This document shows, piece after piece, positions 1,526-45,691 of a DNA stretch of 64,000 nt (within the stretch, counting starts at the first letter, position 1; every line of letters starts with the position of its first letter). This DNA is from Naegleria gruberi. Lineage: Eukaryota. The notes under the pieces were generated by a model. The model saw only the letters and a list, made by a program, of their open reading frames with translations. It was not told the origin of the DNA and did not search any database. Both the position numbers and the translations under genes were made by a program. The DNA is taken from the NCBI GenBank assembly GCA_000004985.1, contig GG738920.1, one strand, 5' to 3'.

Positions 1526-2017
1526 ATGCCAGCCAAGACTAAGAAATCCACTGAAAGCAAGGATAAGACCAAGGAAACCAAGAAGGACAAGGTTACCAAG
1601 AAGACCACAAAGGCTTCCGGTGATGGTGAAGAAGGTGAAAAGGACGACAAGAAGAAGAAGTCTAGACATGAATCCTACTCTTCATATATCTACAAAGTCT
1701 TGAGACAAGTCCACTCTGATATTGGTATTTCCACCAAGGCTATGTCTATCATGAACTCCTTCATTCAAGATATCTTTGAAAGAATTGCCAATGAAGCTGC
1801 TCAATTGTGTAGAGTCAATGGTACTAAGACTTTGTCTTCTCGTGAAATCCAAACTGCTGTCAGATTGATCCTCCCAGGTGAATTGGCTAAGCACGCTGTT
1901 TCTGAAGGTACCAAGGCTGTTACCAAGTATCAAACTTCATCAGGAAAGACTGCTCCAAAGAAGAGAGAGAAGAAGGAAAAGAAGGAAAAGTCTGAAAAGA
2001 CTACTGAAAGCAAGTAA
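1526..2017 (+). CDS. H2B: histone H2B with a long K-rich N-tail and an extra K/E-rich C-terminal extension
   Basis: Translation ...[90 protein letters not shown] matches the canonical H2B histone fold almost residue for residue. About 28 extra residues ([28 protein letters not shown]) follow the usual end. Single exon. Confidence 0.9.
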
Positions 2018-2357
2018 TTCGATTACTAACATGACACAATTACCTTTTTGTAAATATCATTTACTGGGATGTGTACTGCATCCAACCTAGATTTCACAAC
2101 TTTTGTAACTCATTAAAACAATAACTTAAATTATTTCAATTTGTGTGAATTGTTTTAATATATTTCCGAATCAAAATTGCTAGATTTAGGATGGTGGTAT
2201 CAGTATGGACTTGCACCTTGATGAATTGCTCACTAGTGGGTTTTACACTAGATCAGTGATAATCAAACTTGGATGGCTTGCTCAGGTAGACACTCGATAA
2301 GTTGATTAGTCAGATAATCTATTTCAATCATAATCAGACAAGTCTTGGTGGTAAAAG

Positions 2358-3182
2358 TTAAATATTTAATGATGAAAGAACTCTCTTGAAGAGAATGTTA
2401 TTCTCCAAATGAACATGAATGTACAAGTTTTCTTCCAACTCGGTGAGCAATCTCTTTGTATTCTCCACAGTTTTGCAATAGTCAGGCAATTCCTTTCTCA
2501 TAGAAGCCAACAATTTAATCAACTTGCCAGCTTCATCATGATCCTCCATCAATGATGCTAGTTTACTCTTCAAGAATGGATTACTTTTATCTTGTTGTTC
2601 ATCATATTGAATGATTAGTGGAAAGACATCCTTCTCCTCCTTTACCAAGTGTACAAGCAATTCAGTGGCAAGACTTTGGAAGATCTTGTACATCTTCTCC
2701 ATCAATAGAATAGAAGGATGAGTTGAGGCTACATCTTGCTCATTCTCTCCTGATGATTGTCTGGCTTGTTGAATTAACTTTCCCATATGAACAGTGTAAA
2801 TCTTGAGTAAGAGTTGGGAAAGAACAGGAATATTCTCCCTGAGGTAATCATGATGATGATGAATAATGTGTTGTACAAGTTGGGAAGCTTTCCAATCAAC
2901 CATTCCTTGTTGAAGAGAGGTAGAGGTGTTGTTATTGTCTTCTTGTTGTTGGCAACATTGAATTTCCATCTCTTGTACTTGTTTAATGATTGAAAGACAT
3001 TCCTCTTCAATGTTACTAACAGAAGATGATTCTTGAACAACACTAATCAAACTTCTCTGACCACCACAACAATAGTCAATACCAAGCTTGTTCAATATGA
3101 GAGGTCCTCCTTTTGGATATTTGGCAATCAAATCACCGAGAAGAATTGATGAAGAAAGGTTGTTTTCAGTTTGTTGTTGCAT
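2358..3182 (-). CDS. RIC/ScdA/YtfE-type di-iron (hemerythrin-like) iron-sulfur repair protein
   Basis: N-terminal ...LGIDYCCGGQRSL... matches the ScdA_N hallmark motif DYCCGG. Downstream are His/Glu-rich hemerythrin-like motifs (HIIHHHHDYLRE, MEDHDEAG, HVHLENNILF). 274 aa, single exon, AT-rich eukaryotic codon usage. Confidence 0.7.
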   Translation of the reverse strand: MQQQTENNLSSSILLGDLIAKYPKGGPLILNKLGIDYCCGGQRSLISVVQESSSVSNIEEECLSIIKQVQEMEIQCCQQQEDNNNTSTSLQQGMVDWKASQLVQHIIHHHHDYLRENIPVLSQLLLKIYTVHMGKLIQQARQSSGENEQDVASTHPSILLMEKMYKIFQSLATELLVHLVKEEKDVFPLIIQYDEQQDKSNPFLKSKLASLMEDHDEAGKLIKLLASMRKELPDYCKTVENTKRLLTELEENLYIHVHLENNILFKRVLSSLNI

Positions 3183-3574
3183 TGTCAGTATTGTTATTGT
3201 ATTTGTTTTCTAAATTGATAATAACTTCTAATGACCATACAACAGCCTTTAATACTATCCATGATGAGCCATTATTATTTGTGGGGTTTCTTCTTCATTC
3301 CTTATCTATTAACCCATTTGTCCTCCATGATAAAGCCACTGAAGATTATTGTTGGAGAATTTTTTGTTATTTTGAAAATTTTCTCTTCTTGATTTCTGGC
3401 GAAGATGTTCTCAAGTTGTAGCACCAACAAAACCAATTCAACAACAATTCAATTCAATATATAAATAACTAAATATCCACTTCACTCTACTTCTCATCAT
3501 CTTTAAATCTTTCATCAAAATAAAAGAAGCCAAACAAAAAATAAAAAATTGTAAAAAATTTGAAAATATAAAAA

Positions 3575-6500
3575 ATGTTAAAAAGGGTCGCCTCTGTTGG
3601 AAGCAAAAATAATAAACTTGTCCGTAGACATTTGTTGGACGGGCGACTCTATCAAACTGCCTTCTTCAACACAACAAAGCCAAGTCTTTCATTGAAAAAA
3701 ACACTGGGAGTTGATTCAAAATTACAAAAGGAAGCTGATGAAGTTTCTTCGGCAACTATCGCTGAAGAGCTTGATGATATACAAATGGAAGCTGATGCTA
3801 AGGATTTTGATACTGAAGTCTTGGAAGAAATTTACTCTGGAGAATTGTTCGACGCCTATAGCAGAATGTCCTTGTTAGTTAAAAGAGAAAAGAAGCAAGG
3901 AGATGTTCCTTATGCTGAAGAACCATCTCTTGCTCCAAACTTCTCTGACGAGTTTGCATTGGAAGATGCCGATGCTGATAATGATGCAGACTTCAATGAC
4001 GCAAATACATTGTTGGATGCTGAAGAAACTGTAAAGGAAACCGGAGAAGAAGAAGATTATGAAGATATAGACGACTATGAAGACGTTGAAGATATAAATC
4101 CACACCAACAAGCTATGGAAGATATGGCTCTCCTCCTTGAAAAGAATGACCTATTGGGTTTAACTGATGCAGATGTTGCTGAAATGACAGCAGTGGACCA
4201 AGAATTAGATACTTTTGATGTTTCTGAATTTGATATTCATGCTAAACTTGTAGATAGAGTTTCTACCATCTCACAAAAAGCACCAAAGCAAGTTATGAAT
4301 GCCACAGTCTCGGAAAACGCTAAGGATGTTTCCAATACTATTAGCGAAGTTGGTAAACTTGTTCAAGAAATGTCTCCAATGATTAGTGTTGCTATTGGTT
4401 CTCTTGATATGACTGATAATAATGCTGCTCAAGATCCTCAATTTGTTAACCAAGCAAACAAGATTAATGAATTGGCCAAGTACTTGATTTATACTACCTT
4501 GATGAGAGAAAATCCAAAGGAAATTTCACCAGAACTTGCCAACTCTGCCAAGAGATTTGGTATTGATATTAGTGCTCTTCAACAAGAAGCTGCTTCTGGT
4601 AAGCAAATTGCTATTCCTTCTATTTTACAACAAGAATCAAGCACTTCCTCTTCGGAAGAATTTTCTTCATCTGAAGAAGAAGAGGTTAGCAAGGATATTT
4701 TGAGTATTCCAATGATTGAAGAAATTCAAAAGGAAGCTGAATTGGAACAACAAGCTGAAGTTGCTAAGGCTCTTGCTATTGAACAAACCTTAGCTGTCAG
4801 AGAAGCTGATGAAGTTGTTGAAGAATCGGAAGAAGCTGAAGAAGAAGAGGGTATTGATCTTTTCGATGATGAGGAATATCCAGAAGAAGAAGATGAGGAT
4901 CATGCTAGAGAAAAGGAAGAAAAGGAAATTAAGGAAAGATACAACTCTCCAGATTTGAGCTTAATTTCTCAATTTAACTTGCAAATGGGTGATGCTAAAG
5001 TTGAAGATGTTGTTGAAGAAGAAAGAGGAAAGCAAAGACCAGACGCTACTGTCAAATTCCCTAACTTTAGAAACAAGCCACAATTCAACAATAGAGAAGC
5101 TATTCCAGATTATATTCACGAACAAGATATTACCATTTCTCAATATTGTAATGTCTTTGATGCTGCCAAACAATTCGGTATTGAAGTTGATGAAGATGCC
5201 ATGTTGCCAGAACTTGACAGTTTGACTCAAAGTGAAAAGGCTGATTTCATTGAAAGACAACTTGAAATTGCTACCATGCCATTCCAATCTGTTCAAGCTC
5301 AAAGAAAGGAAATTAAGGAAAGACAAGCTCAAGAAAAGGGAGAAATTTATCAAACTGAAGTTGATCAATTTATGGAACATTTGAATGATCCTATTATTCA
5401 ATCACTCACAATTGATGAAGATGAATTGTTGGAAGATGATTTAGAAATTCAAGCTCAATTGAAGGAAGAAAGTGAAGAAGTCTTTGAAGTTGATTCTTTC
5501 CTCGATGCTGTCATTCTCAAGCAAGATAATCCATACGAACCATTCATGCTTGCTACTCATCCACATCTCTTTGTTGAAGGTTCAACTCATTTGAGAGAAA
5601 CTGATGTTGGTAAGATTTTCATCATTTCCCCAGAACATCATAAGAAGTACTTTGGTGTTACTGGTACTGGTGGTGATTTGGATAAGTCATTCGAACAAAT
5701 CTTACAAAGAGGTTTGCTTGTCAGAGAACCAGTTTTGCCAATCGTTAACGAAATTCAAAGCTTGTCTAAAAATAAGAAGAAGTTGACTACTGATCCAGGA
5801 TACTTGCTTATGGGTATTCAAGGAAGTGGTAAATCTGCTTGTTTGGCCACCTGTGTTTTCAATGCTTACACTAATGGAGTTTTGGTTGTTCATATTCCAT
5901 CTGCTTATCACTGGACTCAAGGAATTCACTTTGTTGAACCATCACCTGTTTTGCAAGGATACTTTGATGCTCCACTCCCAACTAGAGACTTTTTGAAGGC
6001 ATTCATGACTGCCAACACTGAAATTTTGAAGGGAATGAAGTTGAGCAGAGAATATACTCTTCCATTAGAATCTGGTCAAAAGGTTCCAACGACGCTCTAC
6101 GAATTGTGTGACTATGCTCTCCTTTCTGATGGTAATATTTCTGTTGTTTTCAAGTTTGTTCTTGATGAACTCATCAATGATAAGACAACTCCAATGCTCT
6201 TTGCTATTGATGATTATAATTTCTTACACGACTATACATGTTATCAATATGGTAACCTTGACGATTTCACTACAACTGTTCCACAAAAGGTACATGCTAA
6301 GAATTATACATTGGTGAGAGCCTTGTCAAGAATAATTCAACAAAATGCTCCAAACAAGCTCATTGTTGCTGCTAACACAAATAAGAATAAGACACCAAAT
6401 AAGGTTTACCTCATGGAAGAAAACGTTTTGGACCCAGTTTATGTTTCATCTAGATACTCATACCCAGAACTTGAAAACATTGTAGAATATTACCAAAGCT

Positions 6501-6601
6501 CTGCATTTGTGTTCGGAAATAAGGAAAACTTTATGGAAGATTTACTTTTCATGTCAGGTGGTGTTCCACAAAGAGTTTTCAAGCACATGTCTGTGTTCTA
6601 A
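3575..6601 (+). CDS. large acidic protein (1008 aa) with a C-terminal P-loop NTPase domain, possibly mS29/DAP3-like
   Basis: N-terminal ~550 aa are extremely D/E-rich and coiled. The C-terminal ~450 aa contain a Walker A motif (LLMGIQGSGKSACLAT) and a hhhhDD Walker-B-like motif (LFAIDDYNFLHD). The DAP3-like assignment is tentative. Confidence 0.6.
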   Translation: MLKRVASVGSKNNKLVRRHLLDGRLYQTAFFNTTKPSLSLKKTLGVDSKLQKEADEVSSATIAEELDDIQMEADAKDFDTEVLEEIYSGELFDAYSRMSLLVKREKKQGDVPYAEEPSLAPNFSDEFALEDADADNDADFNDANTLLDAEETVKETGEEEDYEDIDDYEDVEDINPHQQAMEDMALLLEKNDLLGLTDADVAEMTAVDQELDTFDVSEFDIHAKLVDRVSTISQKAPKQVMNATVSENAKDVSNTISEVGKLVQEMSPMISVAIGSLDMTDNNAAQDPQFVNQANKINELAKYLIYTTLMRENPKEISPELANSAKRFGIDISALQQEAASGKQIAIPSILQQESSTSSSEEFSSSEEEEVSKDILSIPMIEEIQKEAELEQQAEVAKALAIEQTLAVREADEVVEESEEAEEEEGIDLFDDEEYPEEEDEDHAREKEEKEIKERYNSPDLSLISQFNLQMGDAKVEDVVEEERGKQRPDATVKFPNFRNKPQFNNREAIPDYIHEQDITISQYCNVFDAAKQFGIEVDEDAMLPELDSLTQSEKADFIERQLEIATMPFQSVQAQRKEIKERQAQEKGEIYQTEVDQFMEHLNDPIIQSLTIDEDELLEDDLEIQAQLKEESEEVFEVDSFLDAVILKQDNPYEPFMLATHPHLFVEGSTHLRETDVGKIFIISPEHHKKYFGVTGTGGDLDKSFEQILQRGLLVREPVLPIVNEIQSLSKNKKKLTTDPGYLLMGIQGSGKSACLATCVFNAYTNGVLVVHIPSAYHWTQGIHFVEPSPVLQGYFDAPLPTRDFLKAFMTANTEILKGMKLSREYTLPLESGQKVPTTLYELCDYALLSDGNISVVFKFVLDELINDKTTPMLFAIDDYNFLHDYTCYQYGNLDDFTTTVPQKVHAKNYTLVRALSRIIQQNAPNKLIVAANTNKNKTPNKVYLMEENVLDPVYVSSRYSYPELENIVEYYQSSAFVFGNKENFMEDLLFMSGGVPQRVFKHMSVF

Positions 6602-6631: not shown

Positions 6632-9255
6632 TTATGCAACATAATTGTATGTCTTGTGATCTTCAACTTCCCTTGATAAAAAGTCTCTTTCAATTAAATT
6701 CTCAATTCTTCTCTTGACTTCTTGAGGGTTTGGTACAAACCTGCTTTGTAGTTGCTTTACAACTTCTGACATGAGTTCATTGTGGTGGAGCTTCTTTCTC
6801 GCTTTCATTACTCTCACAATAACAGCCTCAATAACAGGTTTTCTTTCCAATTCAATCTTGGATTCAGTTTCTTGAACTTCCTCAACAGTTTCCTTGGTGG
6901 AGGTGATGGCTAATCTTACTCTATAATTGGCATTCTTAAAGTCCTGATTCAAGACAAACTTGTGATTATCTTCCAAATTCTTTGTCTTTGGTTCTTTGGA
7001 AAGGATTTTGGTCTTGTTCATACATAAAATTGTAAGAGTCTTTTTTAAATCCTTTTCTGGTATTTGAGTTAATTCCTTAATCTTTGCATAGGTATATTCG
7101 GTATGTTCATTGTACAGCATTAAAATACAAATTTGATAGGTAGAAACGACAAGTTCATGTTTTTCACTCGAAAATCTTGCTGTCAAGATACCATCTCCCA
7201 GACTGGTTTGCCAAGTAAGTTTTCTTCCACTATGTACATGATTGTAAAATTTGGCAAATGACTCACAGCACAAATTAAGATCTGCTGGGAGAATGATGTT
7301 ATTGAGGGTATAGGCAGGCCAGAAAGAGTGAGTGAGAATATTTACATTAAAGTCCATTCTTTCTGGTTTGAGTTTGAATGCGTCATGTTGTTGATATTGT
7401 TCGTTGGTTTGGGCTGATATTTTCATATCATTGAACATGCCTTCAATTTTTGATGTAAAACTGTATCCACATTCCTTTTTCATTTTCAAGATGAACATTT
7501 TCTCAGAGTTTGCTTGATGTCCCTTGGAGAGTAATCTCTTTGAAAGATGAACCTTGTAGTAATTCTCAAAAATATCCTTGTCTCTCAAGAATCTGAAAAG
7601 AGCCATAGCATCCTCCATGATTGGTTCCAATTCTTGTTCTGAATCACCAAGAGTTCTGATTGTATTGTCCAAATAGAGGGAAAGATATTCTGAAACTCTC
7701 TTTTGTCTGGTACCATCTGAAAAGATGGAAAATCCTTCCTTTTGAGCTTGTTCAAATTTTGAATTGCTCTTGAAAGATTCTCGAGTAATTCTGTCGTATT
7801 TTCTCTTTTGTTCTAATAGACCTTCAATGAAGGTTACTGCAGATCCCTGTAATTTCTCTTCATCCATTACATAGGCAATACCAACATCGGTAATGTATTG
7901 CTTGTAGAGCTTTATCATGATGGATAAATGTTCTTCTTCATTACCCAAAAACAAATTGTACATTCTGTGCAATTCTGAAATCTTGTCATCCTTGAGGAAG
8001 GAAATGTATCCACTTGGACTCTCTGTAATAGTGTCCAAATGTTTGGTAATCATTTCTTGTCGTAAGATTTTTGAAATTTTTGGTTTTGTTGTAAAAGAGA
8101 GATAGTACTGTACACGGTTATCCTCCTCTCTTAATCTTTCATCGACTAGTTTCAAATAGTCGGTAATTGATGTCTGTGCCAATAAATCACGGGACAATTG
8201 CAAGTAGTATTGAGCACTGGTTTCTAAAAATGGTTCTTCCAATACATCATTATAACAGTTCATTTCACATAGCATTCTCACTACTTTTTTCAACAATAAT
8301 CTATCTACATATTCTCCACCTCTTTCCTTTCCAATCATTTCAATTACAATATTTTTAATTTTAACTCCTGATTGACTTTGATAAATAACTACTCTTTTGA
8401 ATATTTCTACACCATTATCATAGACGAATAATGTGTGTTTAACAGGTGTTTGATTTGCACCATTTCCACTACTTTGAGATTGTTGTTGCTGTAATTGTTT
8501 GAGAGCATAATTTGTATTCAAATACATCAAAACACTGCTCACTACAGATGTTTCTGTCTTGTATTCCTCCCAAACATTGCATATTGTCTTGAGAAATAAT
8601 TCATCAGGACACTTTTTCAAAACCTATTATTAATTCCGATCATCAATTAGATAAAAATTAAAATTTGCACACTGATTAATAAAAGGAGAAATCAAAACTT
8701 ACACTACTGAGAATGAATTCTACTTGCTCCAACATGCAGGCCTCTACATTTTCATAGAGTGATTCGCCATGTCTATTCAATACTATTTTATAGGTATTTC
8801 TATACAATTCCTCATAGGAAAGTTCAGAGCTCTTGTTGTGATAAATTTGTTGAATAGCTTGCTTGAGAAGTGTCCAAGTAGTGGAAAAGAAAGCCTCTGT
8901 TGTTGTACTCTCTGCTCGGGGAGCTTTAATCTCAAATTTCTTTCCTATTAATTGCCAAATTCAAAACAAGAAATAAACATGTTGTATACACAACCACCAT
9001 CATTGTGATCCAAAATTATTGATCATAAATTTGTATATTTTCATCATCCGATCCACACAATTCCAAAAATAACAAAATAACAATTCATGATCATCATCAA
9101 TGGTCATAATGGTAATACAATATTAAATAAAACATTAAAATTCCGCCATCAAATGTTTGTCATTGTGATCAAAATGAACAACAAGGGAATTCAGAACAAT
9201 TTTTAGAACAAAATCAGAAAGAGAGCGAGAACTTACCCGTTTGAACTTTTCTCAT
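6632..9255 (-). CDS. cullin (Cul3-like). Exons 9255..9237, 8944..8703, 8623..6632. Introns 8945..9236 (292 nt) and 8624..8702 (79 nt).
   Basis: Exon 1 is ATGAGAAAAGTTCAAACGG followed by GTAAGT. Spliced N-terminus is MRKVQTGKKFEIKAPRAESTTTEAFFSTTWTLLKQAIQQIYHNKSSELSYEELYRNTYKIVLNRHGESLYENV..., a Cul3-type signature. The C-terminus has the cullin-homology/neddylation region ...IVRVMKARKKLHHNELMSEVVKQL... Confidence 0.8.
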
Positions 9256-11230: not shown

Positions 11231-11420
11231 CTCTCGGGTTGAATTTCTATACTCTTTTGGATATTCATCTTGAATTTCCTTAAAATGCTCCTCGGAGTTA
11301 TATTGTAAGATAGAGATTTATAAATTTCCTTGCAAGAGCCAGTTGGTAAGCAAAAGGATTGTTCCACTTTGCTATCTGGGATATTTAATAAATGAGGAAT
11401 ATTTTCAAAGTGAATAAGAT

Positions 11421-11492
11421 TCCCGTGTAGTCCAATGGCTAGGATACCTGGCTTTCACCCAGGAGGTCCGGGTTCAATTCCCGGCATGGGAG
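11421..11492 (+). tRNA. tRNA-Glu (anticodon TTC)
   Basis: TCCCGTGTAGTCCAATGGCTAGGATACCTGGCTTTCACCCAGGAGGTCCGGGTTCAATTCCCGGCATGGGAG. The 7-bp acceptor stem pairs (one G-T wobble). Anticodon loop is CTTTCAC, T-loop is GGTTCAATTCC. Confidence 0.85.
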
Positions 11493-11589
11493 AATCATTT
11501 TGTTCATCTGGTGTTTTAATTATTTTGACATGCCAATAATTACAATTATTATCACTCAAGAAAAACCTTGAATTGATGAACAGCTTATC

Positions 11590-13700: not shown

Positions 13701-16700
13701 ATGCACAACTCCTCACCACAATTCCTTAATAACATAACAAGGAACATCACAGGGAGAAGAAATTCGCTTTTCCTTTTTATGATGATGACTGTCATCATGA
13801 TCCTAATAACAAATTCATTAGAAATAACTGGTAGTGCAAATAATCAGATGAAACCACTCTCTTACAAGATATCGACAATCGCTGGTCAGGGTTTGATTTC
13901 GGAACAAGATAATTTGAAAGCAAGTTTTGGTTTTGCATCAATGATCTTTATGAATAGGAATGAGAAGGGAGAACAAGTTGAAGATATACTTCTTGTTGAT
14001 GATATCAATTTAGCTGTTAGGAGATTAACTTTTAGAAAGAATGATCAGAATGAGTTCATACCTTCGACAGTAAAAGTATTGGCTGGTGGTATTCCTATGG
14101 AACCTTCACTAGCATATATGAAACCTAAGTTATTGACAATTTCTGAAGGAGGTGATGATGATGAGAATGGTAGAGGAGAAATTTATGTGTTTGAGGAGAG
14201 GAATGGAGGAATGATCAAGAAGATTGACAGGAAGGGAGATTTGCAATTAATTGCCAAATCCTCGAGTGATTCATTCGTATGTGAAGAAGTGAGCTTGGAT
14301 AAGGCAAATTGGGTCTCAATTTCGGATATGAAATATTCAAGAGAAGGAATGGAGGAGGTTTTATATCTTGTTGATTCTAAAAAGATTATTTTGAGAGCTT
14401 CCCTAACAAGAAGAACTATCAAAGCAATAACTAAATGTGTAAAAGATATTACAAATGCTATAATTGATAGTGCCGATCCTTCAGATTTCATTGAAATTAA
14501 TAGTATTTTTGTAAGAAAGAATAGCGAAAATAAGGTAATTCTATATGTTGCTGACAGTAACTCATTGAAAAAGATTGAGCAAGATGGAAATGTATCCAAA
14601 ATTGCTGGAAATGGAAAAGATTACCTGACTGATGCAGATGTATCTACCAACGCACTAAACACAACAGTTTATCCAACCAAGATATTTGTAAATTCTGGAG
14701 GAGAAATTTTATTCACAGAAATGAAGTTTAACAAAATCAGAAAGTTAGACATTCATGGAAATGTTGTATCTATCCAAAGAAATCCGTTTGTCCTCTCGAA
14801 GGGAGTGCTTCAGTCACCTCTCACTAATAATATTTACTTTGAGGAACATAATATAATTTACAAAATGACAGATAAGGGAAATGAACCAATGTTTGGAAAT
14901 GGAACTATTAACAGTCTTAATGGAGTACATGCCATGCAAGCAAGAATTAATCCAATTTCAGTACAAGTTTCATCCAAATCTGGAAAGGATATTATTACTG
15001 TTTTGGATTCTGAGGAATATTTCAAATCAAGAGTAATTGATGAAAATCAAATTATTCAAACAGTAATAGGAGGAGGAATATATAATTTATTGGATATTGA
15101 AGGGATTGATGCATTGAGTGTTCAATTTGTAAAGAATGTTAAAAATTCATTCAGATCCAACAATGGAGATCAATATATTGTGCTGAGCTCAGAATTATTC
15201 AAAATCAATGATGAAGGTAAACTGGTTAGAGTTATTGGATCTGGTTCAAAATTTGCAGGAGATGGTCATAGTGCTTTGTCAGCTATCCTTAATGAACCAA
15301 GTGGTGTTTTTTATTCGAAAACATTAGGAAAAACCTTTATTGCAGATTCAAAGAATGACAGAGTTAGAGTTATTTCTAAAGAGGGTGTTATCTCAACTAT
15401 CATTGGTAAATTGGAGGGCACTGTAGATAACCCAAGAGATGTGATGGAAAGAAATGGATATTTGTACTACGCTGAAAGATCAATTATTTGCAAAATTGAT
15501 TTGGTATCGAATGAACTAGAAGTTATGGTTGGTAATAGACAAACTTCTTTTAATGGTGATGGAAAGAAAGGAAATGAAACATCTATTGGTCCAGAGAGTA
15601 TTTATGTGACTGAAGAAGGTGATATTTACTTTGCTGACATTTCAAATCATCGAATTAGAAAGTGGACAAGAAAAACCGATCTAGTTTCAACAATTGCTGG
15701 AACTGGTGTGCAAGGCTCCAGTGAAGATGGAATTCTGGCAACAAATTCCACAATTGACTCACCATCTGGTGTCTATTTGAATAGAAAGGGAGAGGTTTAT
15801 TTTGTGGAAAGTGAGAGCCATAAAATCAGAAAGATTACATCTGAAGGCAAACTCTTAACCCTCTTCCAAGTGAGATCTCCACACCGATTGATTGTTACAA
15901 GTAATGACGAAGTTATTGTTTCACATGATGCATTCATTACCAAATATTCGAATGGTGAGGTAACAGCAGTTGCAGGATCTAGAATGAAATCGTATCCCGA
16001 ATTGGACGATGATCCATTCGAAACATATTTTGGTTCAATTGGTGGTCTTTCATTTGGAGAGACAGAATCGGATTTACTCTTTGCCAATCCAAAATTTGAT
16101 TTAATTAGAAAGATTTCAAATGGATCCCTATCGAATGTTGCAGGTAGTCATGGAGACGGATTGAATGCACTCGAAGCTAGATTTATGGATATTTCCTCTG
16201 TGGTAGTGAGTCCAGACAATGAGTTGTTCATTGCCGATTCAATGGATCATACTATTAGAAAAGTTTCTAGTGACGGTATTGTTTCAACCATTGCTGGTGT
16301 CTCACAAATTCATGGCTATAACTTATATGATCCACAAGAGAGCATTCTCAATGGACCTACTTCACTTTCTAGTGCAAAAAATGGTGATTTATTCTTCATC
16401 GATCAAAAGAATTATGTCATTCGAAAGATTTCCAATGGAATAGTTACCACAATTATTGGAACACCAAACGAGAGATGCGATATGGAAGAAGGAAAGAGAG
16501 GAAGAGAAACCTGTTTGAGTATGCCACAAAGTCTCGCAGTTTCACCAGGAGGAGATGCTCTTGTTTTTTCTGATCTCTCAACAATAGGAATTTTCCATTA
16601 CAACCTCAATGATGAGAATGCAGTTATTAGACGAATTGCTGGATTTGAAAATGTTATAGGATATAATGGAGATGGAGAAGCCACTACAACATTGATTTCA

Positions 16701-17168
16701 CATGTGCCAAGTTTGGCATTCTCTAACGATGGTTTATCCGTCTATTTTGTTGATAGCAGTAATAATCTTATTAGAAAGCTATCACCTTATTGTCCAGAGG
16801 ATTATGAACTCTCTGAAAAATTACAACAATGCACTGAGAAAGTCATTCCACATCCTAACGAGAGTCCAAAGAAACCAAAACCTCATTTCTCAATGTTCAT
16901 TCCAGGGAATTCTAACATGAGTGGAATGATTAGTGAAAATCTTATGGCTCTACTTCTAGTAACAATTGGATCTGTACTCATTTTGTCAATCATTCTGGCA
17001 GGAGCTATTTATTACTTGCTCAAGAATAGAGAAAGTCAAAAACATTATCAGAAAGTTGAAAGAGATGAAATTCCTGAAGATGTGGATGATAATGATATAG
17101 GAAAATTCTCACTTGGAGCTGATCTTGAAGAAGAAGAAGAAGAAACAGAGGATATTGAAATGATTTAA
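13701..17168 (+). CDS. NHL-repeat type I transmembrane protein (1155 aa)
   Basis: Hydrophobic N-terminal signal (MMMTVIMILITNSL). Multiple NHL-like units end in h-x-R/K-I-R-K motifs (NDRVRVIS, NHRIRKWT, SHKIRKIT, DHTIRKVS, NYVIRKIS, NNLIRKLS). A C-terminal TM (LMALLLVTIGSVLILSIILAGAIYYLL) is followed by an acidic cytoplasmic tail. Single exon. Confidence 0.75.
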   Translation: MHNSSPQFLNNITRNITGRRNSLFLFMMMTVIMILITNSLEITGSANNQMKPLSYKISTIAGQGLISEQDNLKASFGFASMIFMNRNEKGEQVEDILLVDDINLAVRRLTFRKNDQNEFIPSTVKVLAGGIPMEPSLAYMKPKLLTISEGGDDDENGRGEIYVFEERNGGMIKKIDRKGDLQLIAKSSSDSFVCEEVSLDKANWVSISDMKYSREGMEEVLYLVDSKKIILRASLTRRTIKAITKCVKDITNAIIDSADPSDFIEINSIFVRKNSENKVILYVADSNSLKKIEQDGNVSKIAGNGKDYLTDADVSTNALNTTVYPTKIFVNSGGEILFTEMKFNKIRKLDIHGNVVSIQRNPFVLSKGVLQSPLTNNIYFEEHNIIYKMTDKGNEPMFGNGTINSLNGVHAMQARINPISVQVSSKSGKDIITVLDSEEYFKSRVIDENQIIQTVIGGGIYNLLDIEGIDALSVQFVKNVKNSFRSNNGDQYIVLSSELFKINDEGKLVRVIGSGSKFAGDGHSALSAILNEPSGVFYSKTLGKTFIADSKNDRVRVISKEGVISTIIGKLEGTVDNPRDVMERNGYLYYAERSIICKIDLVSNELEVMVGNRQTSFNGDGKKGNETSIGPESIYVTEEGDIYFADISNHRIRKWTRKTDLVSTIAGTGVQGSSEDGILATNSTIDSPSGVYLNRKGEVYFVESESHKIRKITSEGKLLTLFQVRSPHRLIVTSNDEVIVSHDAFITKYSNGEVTAVAGSRMKSYPELDDDPFETYFGSIGGLSFGETESDLLFANPKFDLIRKISNGSLSNVAGSHGDGLNALEARFMDISSVVVSPDNELFIADSMDHTIRKVSSDGIVSTIAGVSQIHGYNLYDPQESILNGPTSLSSAKNGDLFFIDQKNYVIRKISNGIVTTIIGTPNERCDMEEGKRGRETCLSMPQSLAVSPGGDALVFSDLSTIGIFHYNLNDENAVIRRIAGFENVIGYNGDGEATTTLISHVPSLAFSNDGLSVYFVDSSNNLIRKLSPYCPEDYELSEKLQQCTEKVIPHPNESPKKPKPHFSMFIPGNSNMSGMISENLMALLLVTIGSVLILSIILAGAIYYLLKNRESQKHYQKVERDEIPEDVDDNDIGKFSLGADLEEEEEETEDIEMI

Positions 17169-23164: not shown

Positions 23165-23393
23165 TGTAAGATTGTCTGATGTCTTGATGAATAAACTTGG
23201 GGATTGTTCCCTTCTTCATTGTCAATCGAGTTTGTGAAATAATAATTGATAAATGACTTATCAGATAGGAGAATTAAACAATTGACTGCAATTATTTCAA
23301 GATCAGCTAAAAAAGTTAGAATACAATTGATTTTTTCCAAATCCTGTGTGAGTATCTATTTCCATTCAAAAAAGACGTGAAACCAAAATGATT

Positions 23394-23465
23394 CTCCCAT
23401 GCCGGGAATTGAACCCGGACCTCCTGGGTGAAAGCCAGGTATCCTAGCCATTGGACTACACGGGA
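23394..23465 (-). tRNA. tRNA-Glu (TTC), second copy, inverted relative to copy 1
   Basis: Exact reverse complement of the 11421..11492 sequence. About 30 nt of 5' flank (ATGAGGAATATTTT.AAAG.GAATAAGAT) is also shared. Confidence 0.85.
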
Positions 23466-24321
23466 ATCTTATTCTCTTTAAAAATATTCCTCATCTATAA
23501 AATAGCATTGGTTGTAACGAAAAATTAATTATTCCAATCATTTAAGTTCTTTCTAGATCAGAAAGCATACAGTGTAGTAGTTCCTTACAAAAATCTAAAC
23601 CAAAACCATCTTGAAAAACAAGCTCTATACCTAGTCCAGAGTCTCAAGAAGAAATTGGACGAAAATTTATAAAGTTTTAAGAAAAGATAAAGTTGCAATA
23701 TTTCTGAGTTTTCTGGATATTCAAAAAGTGAAATATTCCGAATGTTAAATTGAAATACTTATTACCAGGTTAGCTAGCCATTCTTAAAATTCGTCATCAT
23801 ACATGCTCGGAATTTGACAAATACTCAATTTTGCTCTGATTGAGATTTCTTTGTGCAATGATTTTTCAATTAATTAAAAGAGTTAGGTGGCTCCTAATCT
23901 GACGGTTTGTGCAATGTCTGATTGAAACCAAATCAAAGTGAGCAATTAAGCTCAAACCCTGATCCCTACAAAAAATTGAGTTAATAGTAGATGCAACCCG
24001 TGAGCTGCTTTCAGCTATTAAACTGAAAAGAACAGATACTACACTCGATCAAAGCCAATTGGCCGAGAAAGATGGTTTTGAGAATTGCATAAGGAACAGA
24101 GTTTTTATTCTGTTGGTTGTGGAGCGAAGAATGGCAAAATGTTTGTGGTATTTTAATAAATTTTAATGCCTTGTTCGACTATTGATATTGAACATGTAGC
24201 GAATCTTAATAATCAATATTTATGATGGAGCAGTTCAATCAGAACTTGGAAAGAATGTGAGAAGCAAACTTGACCAACAATTAAGGGGGATTGATAAGTA
24301 AACGTGAACTAGTGAAAAAAC

Positions 24322-25299: not shown

Positions 25300-25373
25300 T
25301 ACCGACAATGGGGCTCGAACCCACGACCCCAGGATTAGAAGTCCTGTGCTCTATCCAACTGAGCTATGACGGC
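25300..25373 (-). tRNA. tRNA-Arg (TCT)
   Basis: Minus strand reads GCCGTCATAGCTCAGTTGGATAGAGCACAGGACTTCTAATCCTGGGGTCGTGGGTTCGAGCCCCATTGTCGGTA. Anticodon loop is CTTCTAA. There is one T-T mismatch in the acceptor stem, so a pseudogene is possible. Confidence 0.7.
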
Positions 25374-30204: not shown

Positions 30205-32028
30205 TTAATAACGTATTTGATAATATTTTTCTACATGTTCCAATTCAGGATAGGTGACTGATAATCTGTGATAATGTTGTTGTTTGGAATAGGTAGAAAA
30301 ATATCCAAAATGTTCCAAACCTATTGCTGTAATTTCTGGATTATTTTCATAAACAAAATCAATGACAAGCTTGAAATTTTGTTTTGCAATTTGCTTTACG
30401 AATTCAAAATTTCGTGACAAGTTTCCATATAATTCAGGTGAGGTAATTCTTCCAACACGAACATTCTTGATGACATCGATATCATTTTGCAACTCCTCTG
30501 ATGCAAATTGAAGAGATGACCCATCAATTTGAACCACCTGAATAACAAATTCCTTATCATTTTGCAACTCTTCGGTGGCATAGATGAATGGCTGAACGAA
30601 AGGTTCTGCCTCTTTCTTAGATTCCAAGATAATAGCTTCCAAAACAATTTCCTTGTCTGAGCGAAGCTCCTCAGATGCATAATCAAGGTTTGTAGTGTTA
30701 ATTCTAATGGCCTCGAGTACAATTTCTCTGTCTGCTTCTATTTCTTCTGAGGCATACTCCAAAGAACCATTATTTCTTAATGCTTCCAATACCATTTCTC
30801 TATCATCTTGAAAATGTTCAAAGAAAAAGAGTAAAGTACCATCTTGTTTGATTGCTTGCATGACCAACTCTCTGTCTTTTTTCAATCCAGAAGATGCAAA
30901 TCGAATGGAGCTTGCACACTTTTGAATGGCCGTACTAACAATTTCTCTATCATTTTTCAGTGCGGAAGAGGCATACTCCAGAGCTTCTCCATTTTGCTTC
31001 ACAGCAGCAAGTACTATTTCTCTATCTGATTTGAAATCAATCGATACTGATTTGAGGGAAGCACCAGAGTGAGAGACAGAGGATAGAATAATTTCTCTGT
31101 TAGATTTGAAGGAGTTTGGGGCAAAGTCTATAGGGAACTTTTTTGATTCAGGACTAGCTCTATATTTAACAGCTTCCACTATTATTTCCCTATCGAATAG
31201 AAACTTTTTGTCAATAAACTCAATGACCATTCCATTCATTTTGATACATTGTAAAATAAAGTCCCTATCAGATTGCAACTCCTCTGCTGCTTCTCTAATA
31301 GATTTAGGAAATTTTGCAACATGTTGCAAAGTAATTTCTCTATCAGATCTAATTTCATAAGAGGCCAATCCAAATGCTTGTCCATTATAACACCCATCTT
31401 GAATAATTTTCATAAAGATTTCCTTATCACTCTTCAAATGATTTGGCAAGAATGAAGATAAATTCGGATTATTCTCAATGGACAGCAACGCCAGCTCTTT
31501 ATCATTCTTCAATTCTTGTGGAAGCATATAATAGGCTCCAACATAGGTTTTCATCACCTTCCTAATCACCTCCTTATCAAAGCTATACTCCTTCGGTGCC
31601 CTATTAATAAAAGTTCCATTCACTTCCAATAACTTGTCGAGAAACTGTAAATTCATCACTCCTTCCTCACTCTGCAATAACAATGGAGAAAACTTAAATT
31701 GAATATCTCGATGAAAAAGTGAAACTTCCTTTCCCTTCCTTCTCAAAGCATCAAACAAATTAAACACATAGCCTCCATCATGATAATACTCGATCGGAAT
31801 AAAATCATCATTAATTTTAAAAGAATTTTCAAAGTATTTTCGGGTGGAGGAGGAAATTCTGCTCATCTTTTCCCGGAGATAATTGTTGTTGAGTTTTTGC
31901 AATTGGAATTGATCGGAGGCTTGATTATCGAGGAAGAGAATGACGCGCTCATTTTCTTCGTTAGCACTTTTAATTTTTTTAAAGTTTGTTTCATTGATTG
32001 AATTTGGCGGCAAATCGCGTTTGGACAT
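30205..32028 (-). CDS. DUF4116 repeat protein, paralog of 11912..12889 (608 aa from the ATG; track ORF starts at an upstream TTG)
   Basis: More than ten units of the type ...DREIVLAAVKQNGEALEYASSALKNDREIVSTAIQKCASSIRFASSGLKKDRELVMQAIKQDGTLL... The ATG giving MSKRDLPPNS is at 32028. Confidence 0.75.
   Translation of the reverse strand: MSKRDLPPNSINETNFKKIKSANEENERVILFLDNQASDQFQLQKLNNNYLREKMSRISSSTRKYFENSFKINDDFIPIEYYHDGGYVFNLFDALRRKGKEVSLFHRDIQFKFSPLLLQSEEGVMNLQFLDKLLEVNGTFINRAPKEYSFDKEVIRKVMKTYVGAYYMLPQELKNDKELALLSIENNPNLSSFLPNHLKSDKEIFMKIIQDGCYNGQAFGLASYEIRSDREITLQHVAKFPKSIREAAEELQSDRDFILQCIKMNGMVIEFIDKKFLFDREIIVEAVKYRASPESKKFPIDFAPNSFKSNREIILSSVSHSGASLKSVSIDFKSDREIVLAAVKQNGEALEYASSALKNDREIVSTAIQKCASSIRFASSGLKKDRELVMQAIKQDGTLLFFFEHFQDDREMVLEALRNNGSLEYASEEIEADREIVLEAIRINTTNLDYASEELRSDKEIVLEAIILESKKEAEPFVQPFIYATEELQNDKEFVIQVVQIDGSSLQFASEELQNDIDVIKNVRVGRITSPELYGNLSRNFEFVKQIAKQNFKLVIDFVYENNPEITAIGLEHFGYFSTYSKQQHYHRLSVTYPELEHVEKYYQIRY
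30390..31440. repeat. coding tandem repeats (DUF4116 units) with spurious antisense ORFs
   Basis: Periodic repeat in the translation. Plus-strand track ORFs 30844..31029, 31106..31360 and 31273..31455 are antisense artefacts. Confidence 0.6.
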
Positions 32029-32577
32029 TTTTTTTTGTAAGGATTTTAAAATTGTAAATTCGTACAGAAATTGTGTGAAATTATCATTGTAAAAATTATT
32101 GAAATTTGTCAATATTGAAGTTCAAAGTCTCATTTTGTAACTTGACAAACCAACTTGCTAACGACCAAAACCGAAACCATCATGAACAAGACATTTTACT
32201 TTTTAAAGCATTTCAAGACTTTACAATACAAAAAATCACAAACCATGAATTCCGTAAACCCTCAAAAAATCAAGTTAATCTCTCATCTTACCAAATACAT
32301 CTTTAATTTTCCCTTAATAGACTTTTACATTCCCGATTCGTTCTTCACAAACCAAATCAATAAGGTGAGAGAATGACCTTTTATGGTGTTTGTTGTAGAC
32401 ATTCGATTTTTTGCTGGACCAAAAAAACTACAAAAAATTGAAAAAGGCGCCAACACAAACGTGAACAGTCCAAAAACCAACTTGAAAAAAAAACATCGAC
32501 ACCAAGAGTCTTTTTTCGCTTGTACAAAAAATTGAAACTCTTCACTTCGTTGTACCATTACCACTTTAAGCTTAAAA

Positions 32578-45620: not shown

Positions 45621-45691
45621 TCGGGTGTGGTATAGTGGTAGCATTCCAGACTGTCACTCTGGCGACCCGGGTTCAATTCCCGGCACTCGAG
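45621..45691 (+). tRNA. tRNA-Asp (GTC)
   Basis: TCGGGTGTGGTATAGTGGTAGCATTCCAGACTGTCACTCTGGCGACCCGGGTTCAATTCCCGGCACTCGAG. Anticodon loop is CTGTCAC. The acceptor pairs with one G-T. The D-arm is slightly irregular. Confidence 0.75.

What the first reader, a model, noticed from the sequence alone, without database searches (positions are those of the whole stretch)
2358..3182. Bacterial-type RIC/ScdA di-iron repair protein encoded as an intronless eukaryotic gene
The DYCCGG ScdA_N signature plus a hemerythrin-like HHE cation-binding domain define the RIC/YtfE/ScdA family, which is mainly bacterial and repairs nitrosative damage to Fe-S clusters. Here it is a single-exon gene with host-like AT-rich codon usage, sitting tail-to-tail with histone H2B. 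That makes it a candidate for an ancient horizontal transfer now domesticated in an amoebozoan genome.
Basis: partly seen in the sequence, partly recalled or inferred. Interest (0 to 1): 0.5.

Follow-up and report, generated by a model that had tools for sequence, protein, structure and literature searches.

The report
Bacterial-type iron-repair gene in Naegleria
The amoeboflagellate Naegleria gruberi carries an intact, actively conserved copy of a mainly bacterial di-iron stress-protection protein (RIC/YtfE/ScdA), most likely picked up from bacteria before Naegleria and its sister genus split; this is a solid but fairly ordinary case of gene transfer into a family already known from a few other eukaryotes.

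Summary
Window 2358..3182 (-) is a 274-aa single-exon ORF with DYCCGG, 340 bp tail-to-tail from histone H2B. It is a RIC protein: Pfam Hemerythrin 6e-12, ScdA_N 2e-7 (just under threshold), TIGR03652 2e-39. All YtfE metal ligands and cysteines are conserved. A confident AlphaFold model (pLDDT 89.8) matches only YtfE/ScdA in the PDB.

The host is Naegleria gruberi (XP_002669995.1, "predicted protein"). That is a heterolobosean, not an amoebozoan.

The gene is truly nuclear:
- Cullin-DAP3-RIC-H2B synteny is shared with N. fowleri and N. lovaniensis.
- Codon usage is host-like.
- dN/dS is about 0.09.
- An environmental relative has a 37-nt spliceosomal intron in the gene.
- Willaertia magna also has an ortholog.

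In an exhaustive search, every hit below the Heterolobosea whose origin I could establish is bacterial (mainly Bacillota), apart from one RIC on an unidentified eukaryotic contig. Most hits are unnamed. Heterolobosean monophyly is strong (99%), but the clade's placement among the bacterial sequences is unresolved.

Bacterial origin by transfer before the Naegleria/Willaertia split is therefore well supported. Donor and depth are not. RICs are already known in Trichomonas and Cryptococcus, so this is a new member of a known kind.

The parts
2358..3182 (-). Complete single-exon CDS (274 aa plus TAA stop) of the N. gruberi RIC protein (XP_002669995.1 / NAEGRDRAFT_53830 / UniProt D2W0W5)
   Evidence: ORF. 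100% identical to P0001 'predicted protein [Naegleria gruberi]'. TIGR03652 2e-39.
3027..3140 (-). N-terminal ScdA_N domain (aa 15-52)
   Evidence: Pfam PF04405 E=2.2e-7, 30.9 bits against a gathering score of 32.5. The AF2 model superposes on full-length YtfE over about 265 alignment columns.
3060..3077 (-). DYCCGG motif (aa 36-41). Cys38-Cys39 correspond to YtfE Cys30-Cys31.
   Evidence: D36, C38, C39 and G41 are invariant in the 100-sequence alignment A2. Mapping to YtfE C30/C31. The electron-delivery role of the di-Cys is reported for YtfE in PMC9052748.
2382..2870 (-). Hemerythrin-like HHE four-helix-bundle domain (aa 105-267). It carries the di-iron ligands H111, H132, H178, E182, H215, H256 and E260, plus C236.
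   Evidence: Pfam PF01814 6e-12. Ligand mapping to YtfE H84/H105/H129/E133/H160/H204/E208 and C184. All are invariant in A2. Long helices 99-143, 156-196, 202-231 and 237-271 in the model.
2018..2357 (.). 340-bp 3' intergenic spacer between the convergent H2B and RIC genes. In N. fowleri and N. lovaniensis a B9-C2 gene sits here.
   Evidence: tblastn of the B9 proteins against the window finds nothing.
3183..3574 (.). 392-bp 5' intergenic region shared head-to-head with the DAP3/mS29 gene (presumed divergent promoter region, inferred)
   Evidence: Coordinates. The same divergent RIC/DAP3 arrangement occurs in L001 and L003.
1526..2017 (+). Histone H2B gene, a conserved synteny anchor
   Evidence: Pfam Histone 1.3e-19. 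A histone gene lies on the same side of RIC in N. fowleri and N. lovaniensis.
3575..6601 (+). DAP3 / mitoribosomal mS29 gene (1008 aa), a conserved synteny anchor
   Evidence: Pfam DAP3 3e-34. Orthologous neighbours of 1019 and 1009 aa in L001 and L003.
6632..8620 (-). Large exon of a cullin gene, a conserved synteny anchor
   Evidence: ORF translation. Cullin genes (Pfam Cullin, Cullin_Nedd8) sit next to DAP3 in L001 and L003. The cullin identity of the window ORF is inferred from its position and its sequence as read, not separately scanned.

Best explanation
The ORF is the Naegleria gruberi member of the RIC (Repair of Iron Centres; YtfE/ScdA) family. It is a two-domain protein: a small N-terminal ScdA_N domain with a vicinal Cys-Cys pair, then a hemerythrin-like four-helix bundle that binds two iron atoms through conserved His and Glu residues. 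It is a functional nuclear gene under purifying selection. It is shared by Naegleria species and Willaertia, and was most likely acquired from bacteria (the closest named relatives are mainly Bacillota) before those genera diverged. Since then it has taken on host codon usage, picked up lineage-specific Q/N-rich insertions and, in one relative, gained an intron.

Inferred mechanism. The protein has no N-terminal presequence, so it probably acts in the cytosol. There its di-iron centre, supplied with electrons through Cys38-Cys39, would handle nitrite/NO or labile iron so that Fe-S enzymes stay active under nitrosative and oxidative stress. Such stress could come from denitrifying prey bacteria or, for N. 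fowleri, from host NO.

Shown here: family membership, ligand conservation, fold, chromosomal integration and selection. Inferred: metal content, localisation, the stress-protective role, and which chemistry (iron donation or nitrite reduction) is used.
For: Family: Pfam Hemerythrin 6e-12 and ScdA_N 2e-7, TIGR03652 2e-39, and PDB sequence hits only to ScdA and YtfE at 1e-15 and 3e-14.

Ligands: YtfE H84/H105/H129/E133/H160/H204/E208 and C30/C31/C184 all map to identical residues in N. gruberi and four other heterolobosean sequences. They are invariant across 100 homologs. The channel residue E125 is conserved as E174, and E159 is conservatively replaced by D214.

Fold: the AF2 model has pLDDT 89.8 and pTM 0.83. 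The 12 significant Foldseek PDB hits are all YtfE or ScdA/RIC (prob 1.0, target-normalised TM 0.79-0.87), and the next hit has E>0.3.

Nuclear gene: Cullin-DAP3-RIC-H2B order and orientation are conserved in N. fowleri and N. lovaniensis. Codon usage is host-like. dN/dS between N. fowleri and N. lovaniensis is 0.088. The environmental ortholog on L006 has a 37-nt GT..AG intron that restores the reading frame. A Willaertia ortholog exists.

Bacterial origin: in an exhaustive HMM search of 1.84 billion representatives, every hit below the Heterolobosea whose origin I could establish is bacterial, except one eukaryotic contig. The closest, P0004, has a Shine-Dalgarno sequence and an intrinsic terminator. 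Thousands of bacterial homologs stand against a handful of eukaryotic ones.
Against: The branch joining the heterolobosean clade to any particular bacterial group has 0-11% NJ bootstrap support, so neither the donor nor strict nesting inside bacteria is demonstrated. Only distance trees could be built. The known eukaryotic RICs (Trichomonas RIC1/2, Cryptococcus CNA2870) could not be retrieved and placed. The ScdA_N score is slightly below Pfam's gathering score, and the TIGR03652 score (135.6) is below the equivalog cut-off (204.7). No expression, metal-binding or activity data exist for this protein, and no paper mentions it. The biochemical role of the family itself is disputed.
Confidence: 0.78

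Rival explanations
1. Mechanistic rival A: the protein is chiefly an iron donor or repair factor. Its labile di-iron site releases iron through a glutamate-gated channel to rebuild Fe-S clusters damaged by NO or H2O2. This is the classical RIC model.
For: YtfE promotes cluster formation on IscU, and this needs E125 and E159 at the channel entrance (PMC8117158). E125 is conserved as E174. E159 is an acidic residue (D214 in Naegleria, E in Willaertia and the environmental sequence). The eukaryotic T. vaginalis RIC is reported to restore aconitase and fumarase activity (review PMC9268430).
Against: Crack et al. found that YtfE donates iron only under conditions that damage its own centre (PMC9052748). 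The iron-donor model does not explain the invariance of the N-terminal Cys-Cys pair in every homolog. A eukaryotic cytosolic partner equivalent to IscU/IscS is not identified here.
Confidence: 0.35
2. Mechanistic rival B: the protein is chiefly a low-capacity nitrite reductase that converts nitrite to NO at the di-ferrous site. Electrons would arrive through Cys38-Cys39, and it would work together with NO-consuming enzymes.
For: Nitrite reductase activity is shown for YtfE, with Cys30/Cys31 delivering electrons (PMC9052748), and for ScdA (PMC12412097). The di-Cys and all ligands are invariant in the heterolobosean proteins.
Against: I did not establish whether Naegleria has the NO-consuming partners (Hmp or Hcp type). 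No such gene is near RIC in the window. Producing NO in a eukaryotic cytosol has no obvious benefit without them.
Confidence: 0.4
3. Origin rival: RIC was present in an early eukaryote (or came with the mitochondrial ancestor), was inherited vertically, and was lost in most lineages. Under this view Naegleria's copy is not a lineage-specific transfer.
For: RICs occur in distantly related eukaryotes: Trichomonas and Cryptococcus and a second, unidentified eukaryote, L007. The deep placement of the heterolobosean clade is unresolved.
Against: In the exhaustive search no named eukaryote other than Naegleria and Willaertia appeared among the hits I could identify. The second eukaryotic RIC (P0124) is 46-52% identical to Clostridia and Bacilli but only 35-39% identical to Naegleria. 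Its nearest relatives sit in bacterial operon-like contexts. That pattern fits separate transfers better. The closest named bacteria are Bacillota, not Alphaproteobacteria, and E. coli YtfE is only 24-28% identical.
Confidence: 0.1
4. Artefact rival: the ORF is bacterial contamination or a misassembly in the N. gruberi genome.
For: The closest homologs outside the Heterolobosea are bacterial, and the gene has no intron.
Against: The same gene lies between the same eukaryotic neighbours in two other independently assembled Naegleria genomes. GC is flat across the window. Codon usage is host-like. There is no Shine-Dalgarno sequence. Identity to any bacterial protein is at most 36%. An environmental ortholog carries a spliceosomal intron.
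Confidence: 0.01

Closest known systems
Escherichia coli YtfE (RIC; PDB 5FNN, 7BHA and others)
   Same: The two-domain architecture is the same, as are the vicinal Cys pair, the His/Glu di-iron ligands, Cys184 and channel residue E125. It is the best structural match to the model (TM 0.82-0.86 normalised to YtfE).
   Different: Only 28% identical. The N. gruberi protein is 54 aa longer, with a longer interdomain linker and an insertion between the first two bundle helices. E159 is Asp. It is encoded in a eukaryotic nucleus with no NsrR-type operon context.
Staphylococcus aureus ScdA / Bacillota RICs (PDB 9R7J, 9J47)
   Same: The best PDB sequence hit (1.2e-15). The HVHLENN motif form is shared with Bacillota proteins, and the nearest named homologs are Bacilli and Clostridia at 30-36% identity.
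   Different: No supported phylogenetic grouping with any particular Bacillota lineage. The heterolobosean proteins carry Q/N-rich insertions.
Trichomonas vaginalis RIC1 / RIC2
   Same: A eukaryotic protist with bacterial-type RIC genes. RIC1 is a di-iron protein that restores Fe-S enzyme activity (review PMC9268430).
   Different: A different supergroup lineage (Metamonada). I could not obtain the sequences, so the relationship to the Naegleria gene is untested. No named Trichomonas protein appeared among the top hits whose names I could check.
Cryptococcus neoformans CNA2870
   Same: A eukaryotic RIC-like gene, induced by NO.
   Different: Fungal, described only as RIC-like with two hemerythrin motifs. 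Not compared here.
O2-binding hemerythrins of Naegleria gruberi
   Same: They share the HHE/hemerythrin-like four-helix-bundle superfamily. N. gruberi has 5 single-domain copies (PMC4919030).
   Different: Those are single-domain O2-binding hemerythrins without ScdA_N. The present protein matches only RIC structures and RIC profiles.

Membership tests
RIC (YtfE/ScdA/DnrN) di-iron proteins | N-terminal ScdA_N (DUF542) domain with the vicinal Cys-Cys motif (D-x-C-C-G-G) | tested here: met
   PF04405 E=2.2e-7, 30.9 bits, 1.6 bits under the Pfam gathering score. D36/C38/C39/G41 are invariant in 100 homologs. C38/C39 align to YtfE C30/C31. The domain superposes on YtfE in the model.
RIC (YtfE/ScdA/DnrN) di-iron proteins | C-terminal hemerythrin-like HHE four-helix bundle | tested here: met
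   PF01814 6e-12, 46.6 bits against a gathering score of 25.3. Four long helices in the AF2 model, pLDDT 89.8.
RIC (YtfE/ScdA/DnrN) di-iron proteins | Conserved di-iron ligand set (YtfE H84, H105, H129, E133, H160, H204 per PMC9268430, plus E208 from my knowledge of the YtfE structure) | tested here: met
   They correspond to H111, H132, H178, E182, H215, H256 and E260. These are identical in all five heterolobosean sequences and invariant in alignment A2.
RIC (YtfE/ScdA/DnrN) di-iron proteins | Overall 3D similarity to solved RIC structures over both domains | tested here: met
   In Foldseek against the PDB, ranks 1-12 are all YtfE or ScdA, prob 1.00, about 265 aligned columns on YtfE, target-normalised TM 0.79-0.87. 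Rank 13 has E=0.38.
RIC (YtfE/ScdA/DnrN) di-iron proteins | Binds two iron atoms (di-iron UV-vis/EPR signature) | not testable with these tools
   Needs recombinant protein. Only ligand conservation is shown.
RIC (YtfE/ScdA/DnrN) di-iron proteins | Induced by NO or oxidative stress and protects Fe-S enzymes, or shows nitrite reductase activity | not testable with these tools
   No expression or activity data were found. No paper names the locus.
NCBIfam TIGR03652 FeS_repair_RIC equivalog (annotation rule calibrated on prokaryotes) | Whole-protein score at or above the curated cut-off of 204.7 bits | tested here: not met
   135.6 bits, E=2e-39, matched in two stretches because of lineage-specific insertions. 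This is an automatic-naming threshold, not a structural or catalytic criterion. It does show that the protein is a divergent member.
Bacterium-to-eukaryote horizontal gene transfer | The gene is physically integrated in the eukaryotic genome (not contamination) | tested here: met
   Conserved synteny in three Naegleria genomes, host codon usage, and an intron in the L006 ortholog.
Bacterium-to-eukaryote horizontal gene transfer | The nearest relatives outside the recipient clade are bacterial, and the distribution in eukaryotes is patchy | tested here: met
   Exhaustive search: Heterolobosea first, then hits that are bacterial wherever an origin could be established, plus one other eukaryotic contig. 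Many hits are unnamed metagenomic proteins, so this is not exhaustive for eukaryotes.
Bacterium-to-eukaryote horizontal gene transfer | The recipient clade is nested within a specific bacterial donor group with statistical support | tested here: inconclusive
   NJ bootstrap is 99% for heterolobosean monophyly but 0-11% for any sister group. No ML program was available.
O2-binding hemerythrins | Single-domain O2-carrier hemerythrin matching hemerythrin or bacteriohemerythrin structures | tested here: not met
   The protein has two domains, with ScdA_N. No hemerythrin or bacteriohemerythrin structure appears among the significant PDB sequence or fold hits.

The most novel reading that the evidence does not exclude
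RIC entered the heterolobosean lineage once, deep in its history, from an anaerobic Bacillota-like donor. Under this reading the slowly evolving copy on the unidentified eukaryotic contig L007 would be an ortholog from a distant heterolobosean. The only named clue to L007's organism is a Percolomonas best hit for a neighbouring sterol oxidase. The protein would now act as a cytosolic guardian of Fe-S enzymes such as Naegleria's cytosolic [FeFe]-hydrogenase. In N. fowleri it would contribute to resistance against host nitric oxide. Because humans have no RIC, that would make it a pathogen-specific vulnerability.
Probability: 0.2. Interest if true: 0.55.

Novelty: new member of a known kind. Interest (0 to 1): 0.3.

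Why it matters
It adds a well-documented heterolobosean lineage (Naegleria, Willaertia and uncultured relatives) to the short list of eukaryotes with RIC proteins. It also documents the stages of domestication of the gene: amelioration, insertions and intron gain. N. fowleri has the ortholog and humans have no RIC, so the protein is a reasonable candidate for NO or oxidative-stress tolerance in the brain-eating amoeba and could be tested as such. A eukaryotic RIC in a genetically approachable free-living host could also help settle the dispute over whether RICs are iron donors or nitrite reductases. None of this overturns current understanding: transfer of anaerobic and stress-metabolism genes into Naegleria and other protists is well known.

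Tried and rejected
1. An exact-sequence contig look-up of the window protein found nothing on record. The identification as N. gruberi therefore rests on the 100% protein match.

2. Literature searches for Naegleria with ScdA, YtfE or RIC, and for the locus tags and accessions, found no paper on this gene. Overton 2008 and Nobre 2016 are not held. The Excavata Fe-S review and the hemerythrin-evolution papers do not cover it.

3. I considered whether the 'CKTV' and 'LFKR' motifs shared by P0124 and Naegleria mark common ancestry. I rejected this as weak. LFK occurs in about a quarter of the bacterial sequences in the set, and CKT also occurs in three other sequences in the set, none traced to a eukaryote.

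4. I suspected that the longer hits (281-350 aa) from the exhaustive search might be eukaryotic. By their sequences they are bacterial-style N-terminal fusions or extensions, not eukaryote-like.

5. Foldseek against AFDB50, which would have listed organism names for other eukaryotic RIC models, was not available.

6. NJ trees with two taxon sets could not resolve the sister group. No ML software was available.

7. I looked for the B9-C2 gene that separates RIC and H2B in other Naegleria species. It is absent from the whole 64-kb window.

8. I looked for stress-related partner genes near RIC. There are none among the window's large ORFs.

Full report
**Observation.** The minus strand of window 2358..3182 holds an uninterrupted ATG-to-TAA ORF of 274 aa. 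Residues 36-41 read DYCCGG (nt 3060..3077). Pfam finds the Hemerythrin/HHE domain at residues 105-267 (E=6e-12, 46.6 bits, gathering score 25.3). It finds ScdA_N at residues 15-52 (E=2.2e-7, 30.9 bits, just under the gathering score of 32.5). NCBIfam's best model is TIGR03652 FeS_repair_RIC (E=2e-39, 135.6 bits). That is below the 204.7-bit equivalog cut-off, and the match is split in two by insertions. Histone H2B (1526..2017, +) is convergent with the ORF, with 340 bp between the stop codons. A DAP3/mS29 gene (3575..6601, +) is divergent from it, 392 bp upstream.

**Organism and gene.** The protein is 100% identical over its full length to 'predicted protein [Naegleria gruberi]' (XP_002669995.1 / EFC37251.1 / NAEGRDRAFT_53830 / UniProt D2W0W5). 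The window is therefore from a heterolobosean (Discoba), not an amoebozoan. I found no paper that names this locus or discusses a Naegleria RIC.

**Family membership.** Sequence search of the PDB hits only S. aureus ScdA (1.2e-15) and E. coli YtfE (3e-14). I aligned the protein with E. coli YtfE taken from the MG1655 record. The conserved residues listed for the family are H84, H105, H129, E133, H160 and H204 (PMC9268430), plus E208 from my knowledge of the YtfE structure. They correspond to H111, H132, H178, E182, H215, H256 and E260. YtfE C30/C31/C184 correspond to C38/C39/C236. All of these are identical in N. gruberi, N. fowleri, N. lovaniensis, Willaertia and an environmental relative, and invariant in a 100-sequence alignment. 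An AlphaFold2 model built on that alignment is confident (mean pLDDT 89.8, pTM 0.83). In Foldseek against the PDB, the 12 significant hits are all YtfE or ScdA/RIC chains (probability 1.00, target-normalised TM 0.79-0.87, about 265 aligned columns on YtfE), and the next hit has E=0.38. The protein meets every sequence and structure criterion of the RIC family. It fails only an automatic-annotation score threshold, which reflects its divergence: 28% identity to YtfE and 30-36% to the closest bacterial proteins.

**A genuine, selected nuclear gene.**
- N. fowleri (L001) and N. lovaniensis (L003) carry single-exon orthologs (51-52% identity). They share the gene order and orientations: Cullin, DAP3, RIC, (B9-C2), H2B.
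- GC is flat at about 0.34 across the window.
- The RIC gene's GC3 (0.345) and RSCU (r=0.85 against the window's long ORFs) are host-like.
- There is no Shine-Dalgarno sequence upstream of the start codon.
- dN/dS between N. fowleri and N. lovaniensis is 0.088. dS is 1.49, which is high but calculable.
- On a JGI metagenome contig (L006, with other intron-split genes) the ortholog was called as two ORFs. They are separated by a 37-nt GTAGGT...TTGGTAG intron. Removing it restores the frame and the sequence ...DMYR|LFMKLS..., as in N. fowleri and N. lovaniensis.
- Willaertia magna, the sister genus, has a 308-aa ortholog (34-38% identity) in a different neighbourhood.

Contamination is excluded, and the gene predates the Naegleria/Willaertia split.

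**Origin.** I ran an exhaustive HMMER search of 1.84 billion cluster representatives with a Naegleria profile. It gave Naegleria (508 bits), Willaertia (225 bits), the two halves of the L006 gene (168 and 156 bits), then a plateau starting at 151 bits. Of the plateau hits I could identify, the named ones are Anoxybacillus/Bhargavaea, Paenibacillus, Clostridium spp., Natranaerovirga, a Clostridia MAG and a Desulforhopalus MAG. The closest 90%-cluster hit, P0004 (36% identity), lies on a contig with an AAGGAG Shine-Dalgarno sequence and a stem plus T-run terminator.

The top plateau hit, P0124, is an exception. It sits on a eukaryotic contig (L007, GC 0.33) next to ankyrin, RabGAP-TBC and sterol-type fatty-acid hydroxylase genes interrupted by GT..AG introns. 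Three independent assemblies of this locus are 100% collinear. P0124 is closer to Clostridia and Bacilli (46-52% identity) than to Naegleria (35-39%). Its nearest relatives lie in bacterial operon-like contexts. The best named match of L007's sterol oxidase is Percolomonas cosmopolitus at 49% identity. This is only a weak hint that L007 might itself be a distant heterolobosean.

Neighbour-joining trees (about 230 columns, 163 and 180 taxa, 200 bootstraps) recover Naegleria plus L006 at 100% and Heterolobosea at 99% (197/200). Their sister group is unsupported. Nominally it is a mixed set of Clostridia-type sequences, P0004 and P0124, and P0124 falls in a small sister group in only 22 of 200 replicates.

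Bacterial origin is therefore strongly favoured. The evidence is the overwhelming bacterial diversity of the family, the patchy eukaryotic presence, and closest identifiable relatives that are Bacillota rather than Alphaproteobacteria. Three points remain open: the donor, the depth of the transfer, and whether P0124 marks the same event or a second one.

**Mechanism.** Shown: an intact di-iron ligand sphere, the vicinal cysteines, the RIC fold, and purifying selection. Inferred from the family: the four-helix bundle binds two irons, and the N-terminal domain's Cys38-Cys39 feed electrons to the centre, as shown for YtfE Cys30/31 (PMC9052748). The ScdA_N domain starts only about 8 residues later than in the bacterial proteins and there is no presequence, so a cytosolic location is likely.

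Two chemistries are defended in the literature. One is iron donation through an E125/E159-gated channel to rebuild Fe-S clusters (PMC8117158). The other is high-affinity, low-capacity reduction of nitrite to NO (PMC9052748 and PMC12412097). The Naegleria protein keeps the residues needed for both: E174 (=E125), D214 (=E159) and C38/C39. Sequence alone therefore cannot decide between them. I lean slightly towards redox handling of nitrite/NO, because the Cys pair is invariant in every homolog, including the eukaryotic ones, and the pure iron-donor model does not require that. Either way, the expected physiological outcome is protection of Fe-S enzymes under nitrosative or oxidative stress.

**Comparison and novelty.** RICs are already known in eukaryotes: T. 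vaginalis RIC1/RIC2 and C. neoformans CNA2870 (PMC9268430). Bacterial-derived stress and anaerobic genes are a familiar theme in Naegleria. New here are the explicit recognition of a heterolobosean RIC clade, the evidence for its age and domestication, and a further eukaryotic RIC on an unidentified protist contig. That makes it a new member of a known kind, of moderate-to-low surprise.

**Limits.**
- There is no ML phylogeny.
- Many metagenomic hits are unnamed, so further eukaryotic copies may hide among them.
- AFDB50 was unavailable.
- There are no expression or biochemical data.

Noticed in passing
window 2018..2357, compared with L001 9033..9572 and L003 8903..9442: In N. fowleri and N. 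lovaniensis a 179-aa B9-C2 domain gene lies between RIC and H2B. In N. gruberi that interval is only 340 bp, and tblastn of the B9 proteins finds nothing anywhere in the 64-kb window (best E=2.1). The gene has been relocated or lost at this position.
   Followed up: partly
L006 6575..7340 (JGI metagenome 3300002220 contig): An environmental Naegleria-like RIC ortholog (61% identical to N. fowleri and N. lovaniensis, 46% to N. gruberi) is interrupted by a 37-nt GT..AG phase-2 intron at 6991..7027. This is an intron gained in a gene of bacterial ancestry. Its neighbours (a split glutamate dehydrogenase and a 2OG-Fe(II) oxygenase) differ from the Naegleria synteny.
   Followed up: yes
L007 4230..4937 (Logan SRR32607924; also L008, L009): A second, intronless bacterial-type RIC (P0124, 235 aa) is embedded in a eukaryotic contig beside ankyrin, RabGAP-TBC and sterol-type hydroxylase genes that contain introns. 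It is 46-52% identical to Clostridia and Bacilli RICs but only 35-39% identical to Naegleria. The organism is unknown. The neighbouring sterol oxidase's best named hit is Percolomonas cosmopolitus (49%).
   Followed up: partly
L005 8001..8927 (Willaertia magna JBEGDK010000141.1): The Willaertia RIC ortholog (308 aa) has extra insertions, including an N-rich stretch of about 35 aa between the bundle helices. It lies in a very AT-rich locus (GC 0.25) between ERG4/ERG24 and TauE genes, so it is not syntenic with Naegleria.
   Followed up: partly
window 3575..6601 (+): In the DAP3 / mitoribosomal mS29 homolog, the DAP3 domain occupies only residues 714-1003. It is preceded by an acidic, low-complexity N-terminal extension of about 700 aa. 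The overall length is conserved in N. fowleri (1019 aa) and N. lovaniensis (1009 aa).
   Followed up: no
window 1526..2017 (+): The H2B gene encodes 163 aa, with a K/E-rich C-terminal tail (…[19 protein letters not shown]) beyond the usual end of the H2B histone fold. The H2B neighbours in the other Naegleria species are of similar length (158-160 aa).
   Followed up: no
window 53581..54870 (+): A 429-aa ORF carries an N-terminal 'fungal' Zn(2)-Cys(6) binuclear cluster DNA-binding domain (Pfam Zn_clus 2.6e-9). This domain is mostly associated with fungi.
   Followed up: no
window 30205..32112 (-), 13701..17168 (+), 34246..36237 (-) and 59302..63942 (+): Several large repeat proteins are present: an 11-repeat DUF4116 protein, an NHL/teneurin-NHL repeat protein, a B-box plus NHL (TRIM-like) protein, and a 1546-aa protein with teneurin-type EGF repeats and a REJ domain.
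   Followed up: no
window 11420..11493 (+), 23393..23466 (-), 25300..25373 (-), 45621..45691 (+): Four tRNA genes are present: two tRNA-Glu(TTC) copies in opposite orientation, tRNA-Arg(TCT) and tRNA-Asp(GTC).
   Followed up: no
L011 1313..3533: In a bacterial relative (P0337), RIC is followed tightly by a DUF1858 gene and a DUF438-Hemerythrin-PAS_10 gene. This operon-like context is absent from the eukaryotic loci.
   Followed up: no
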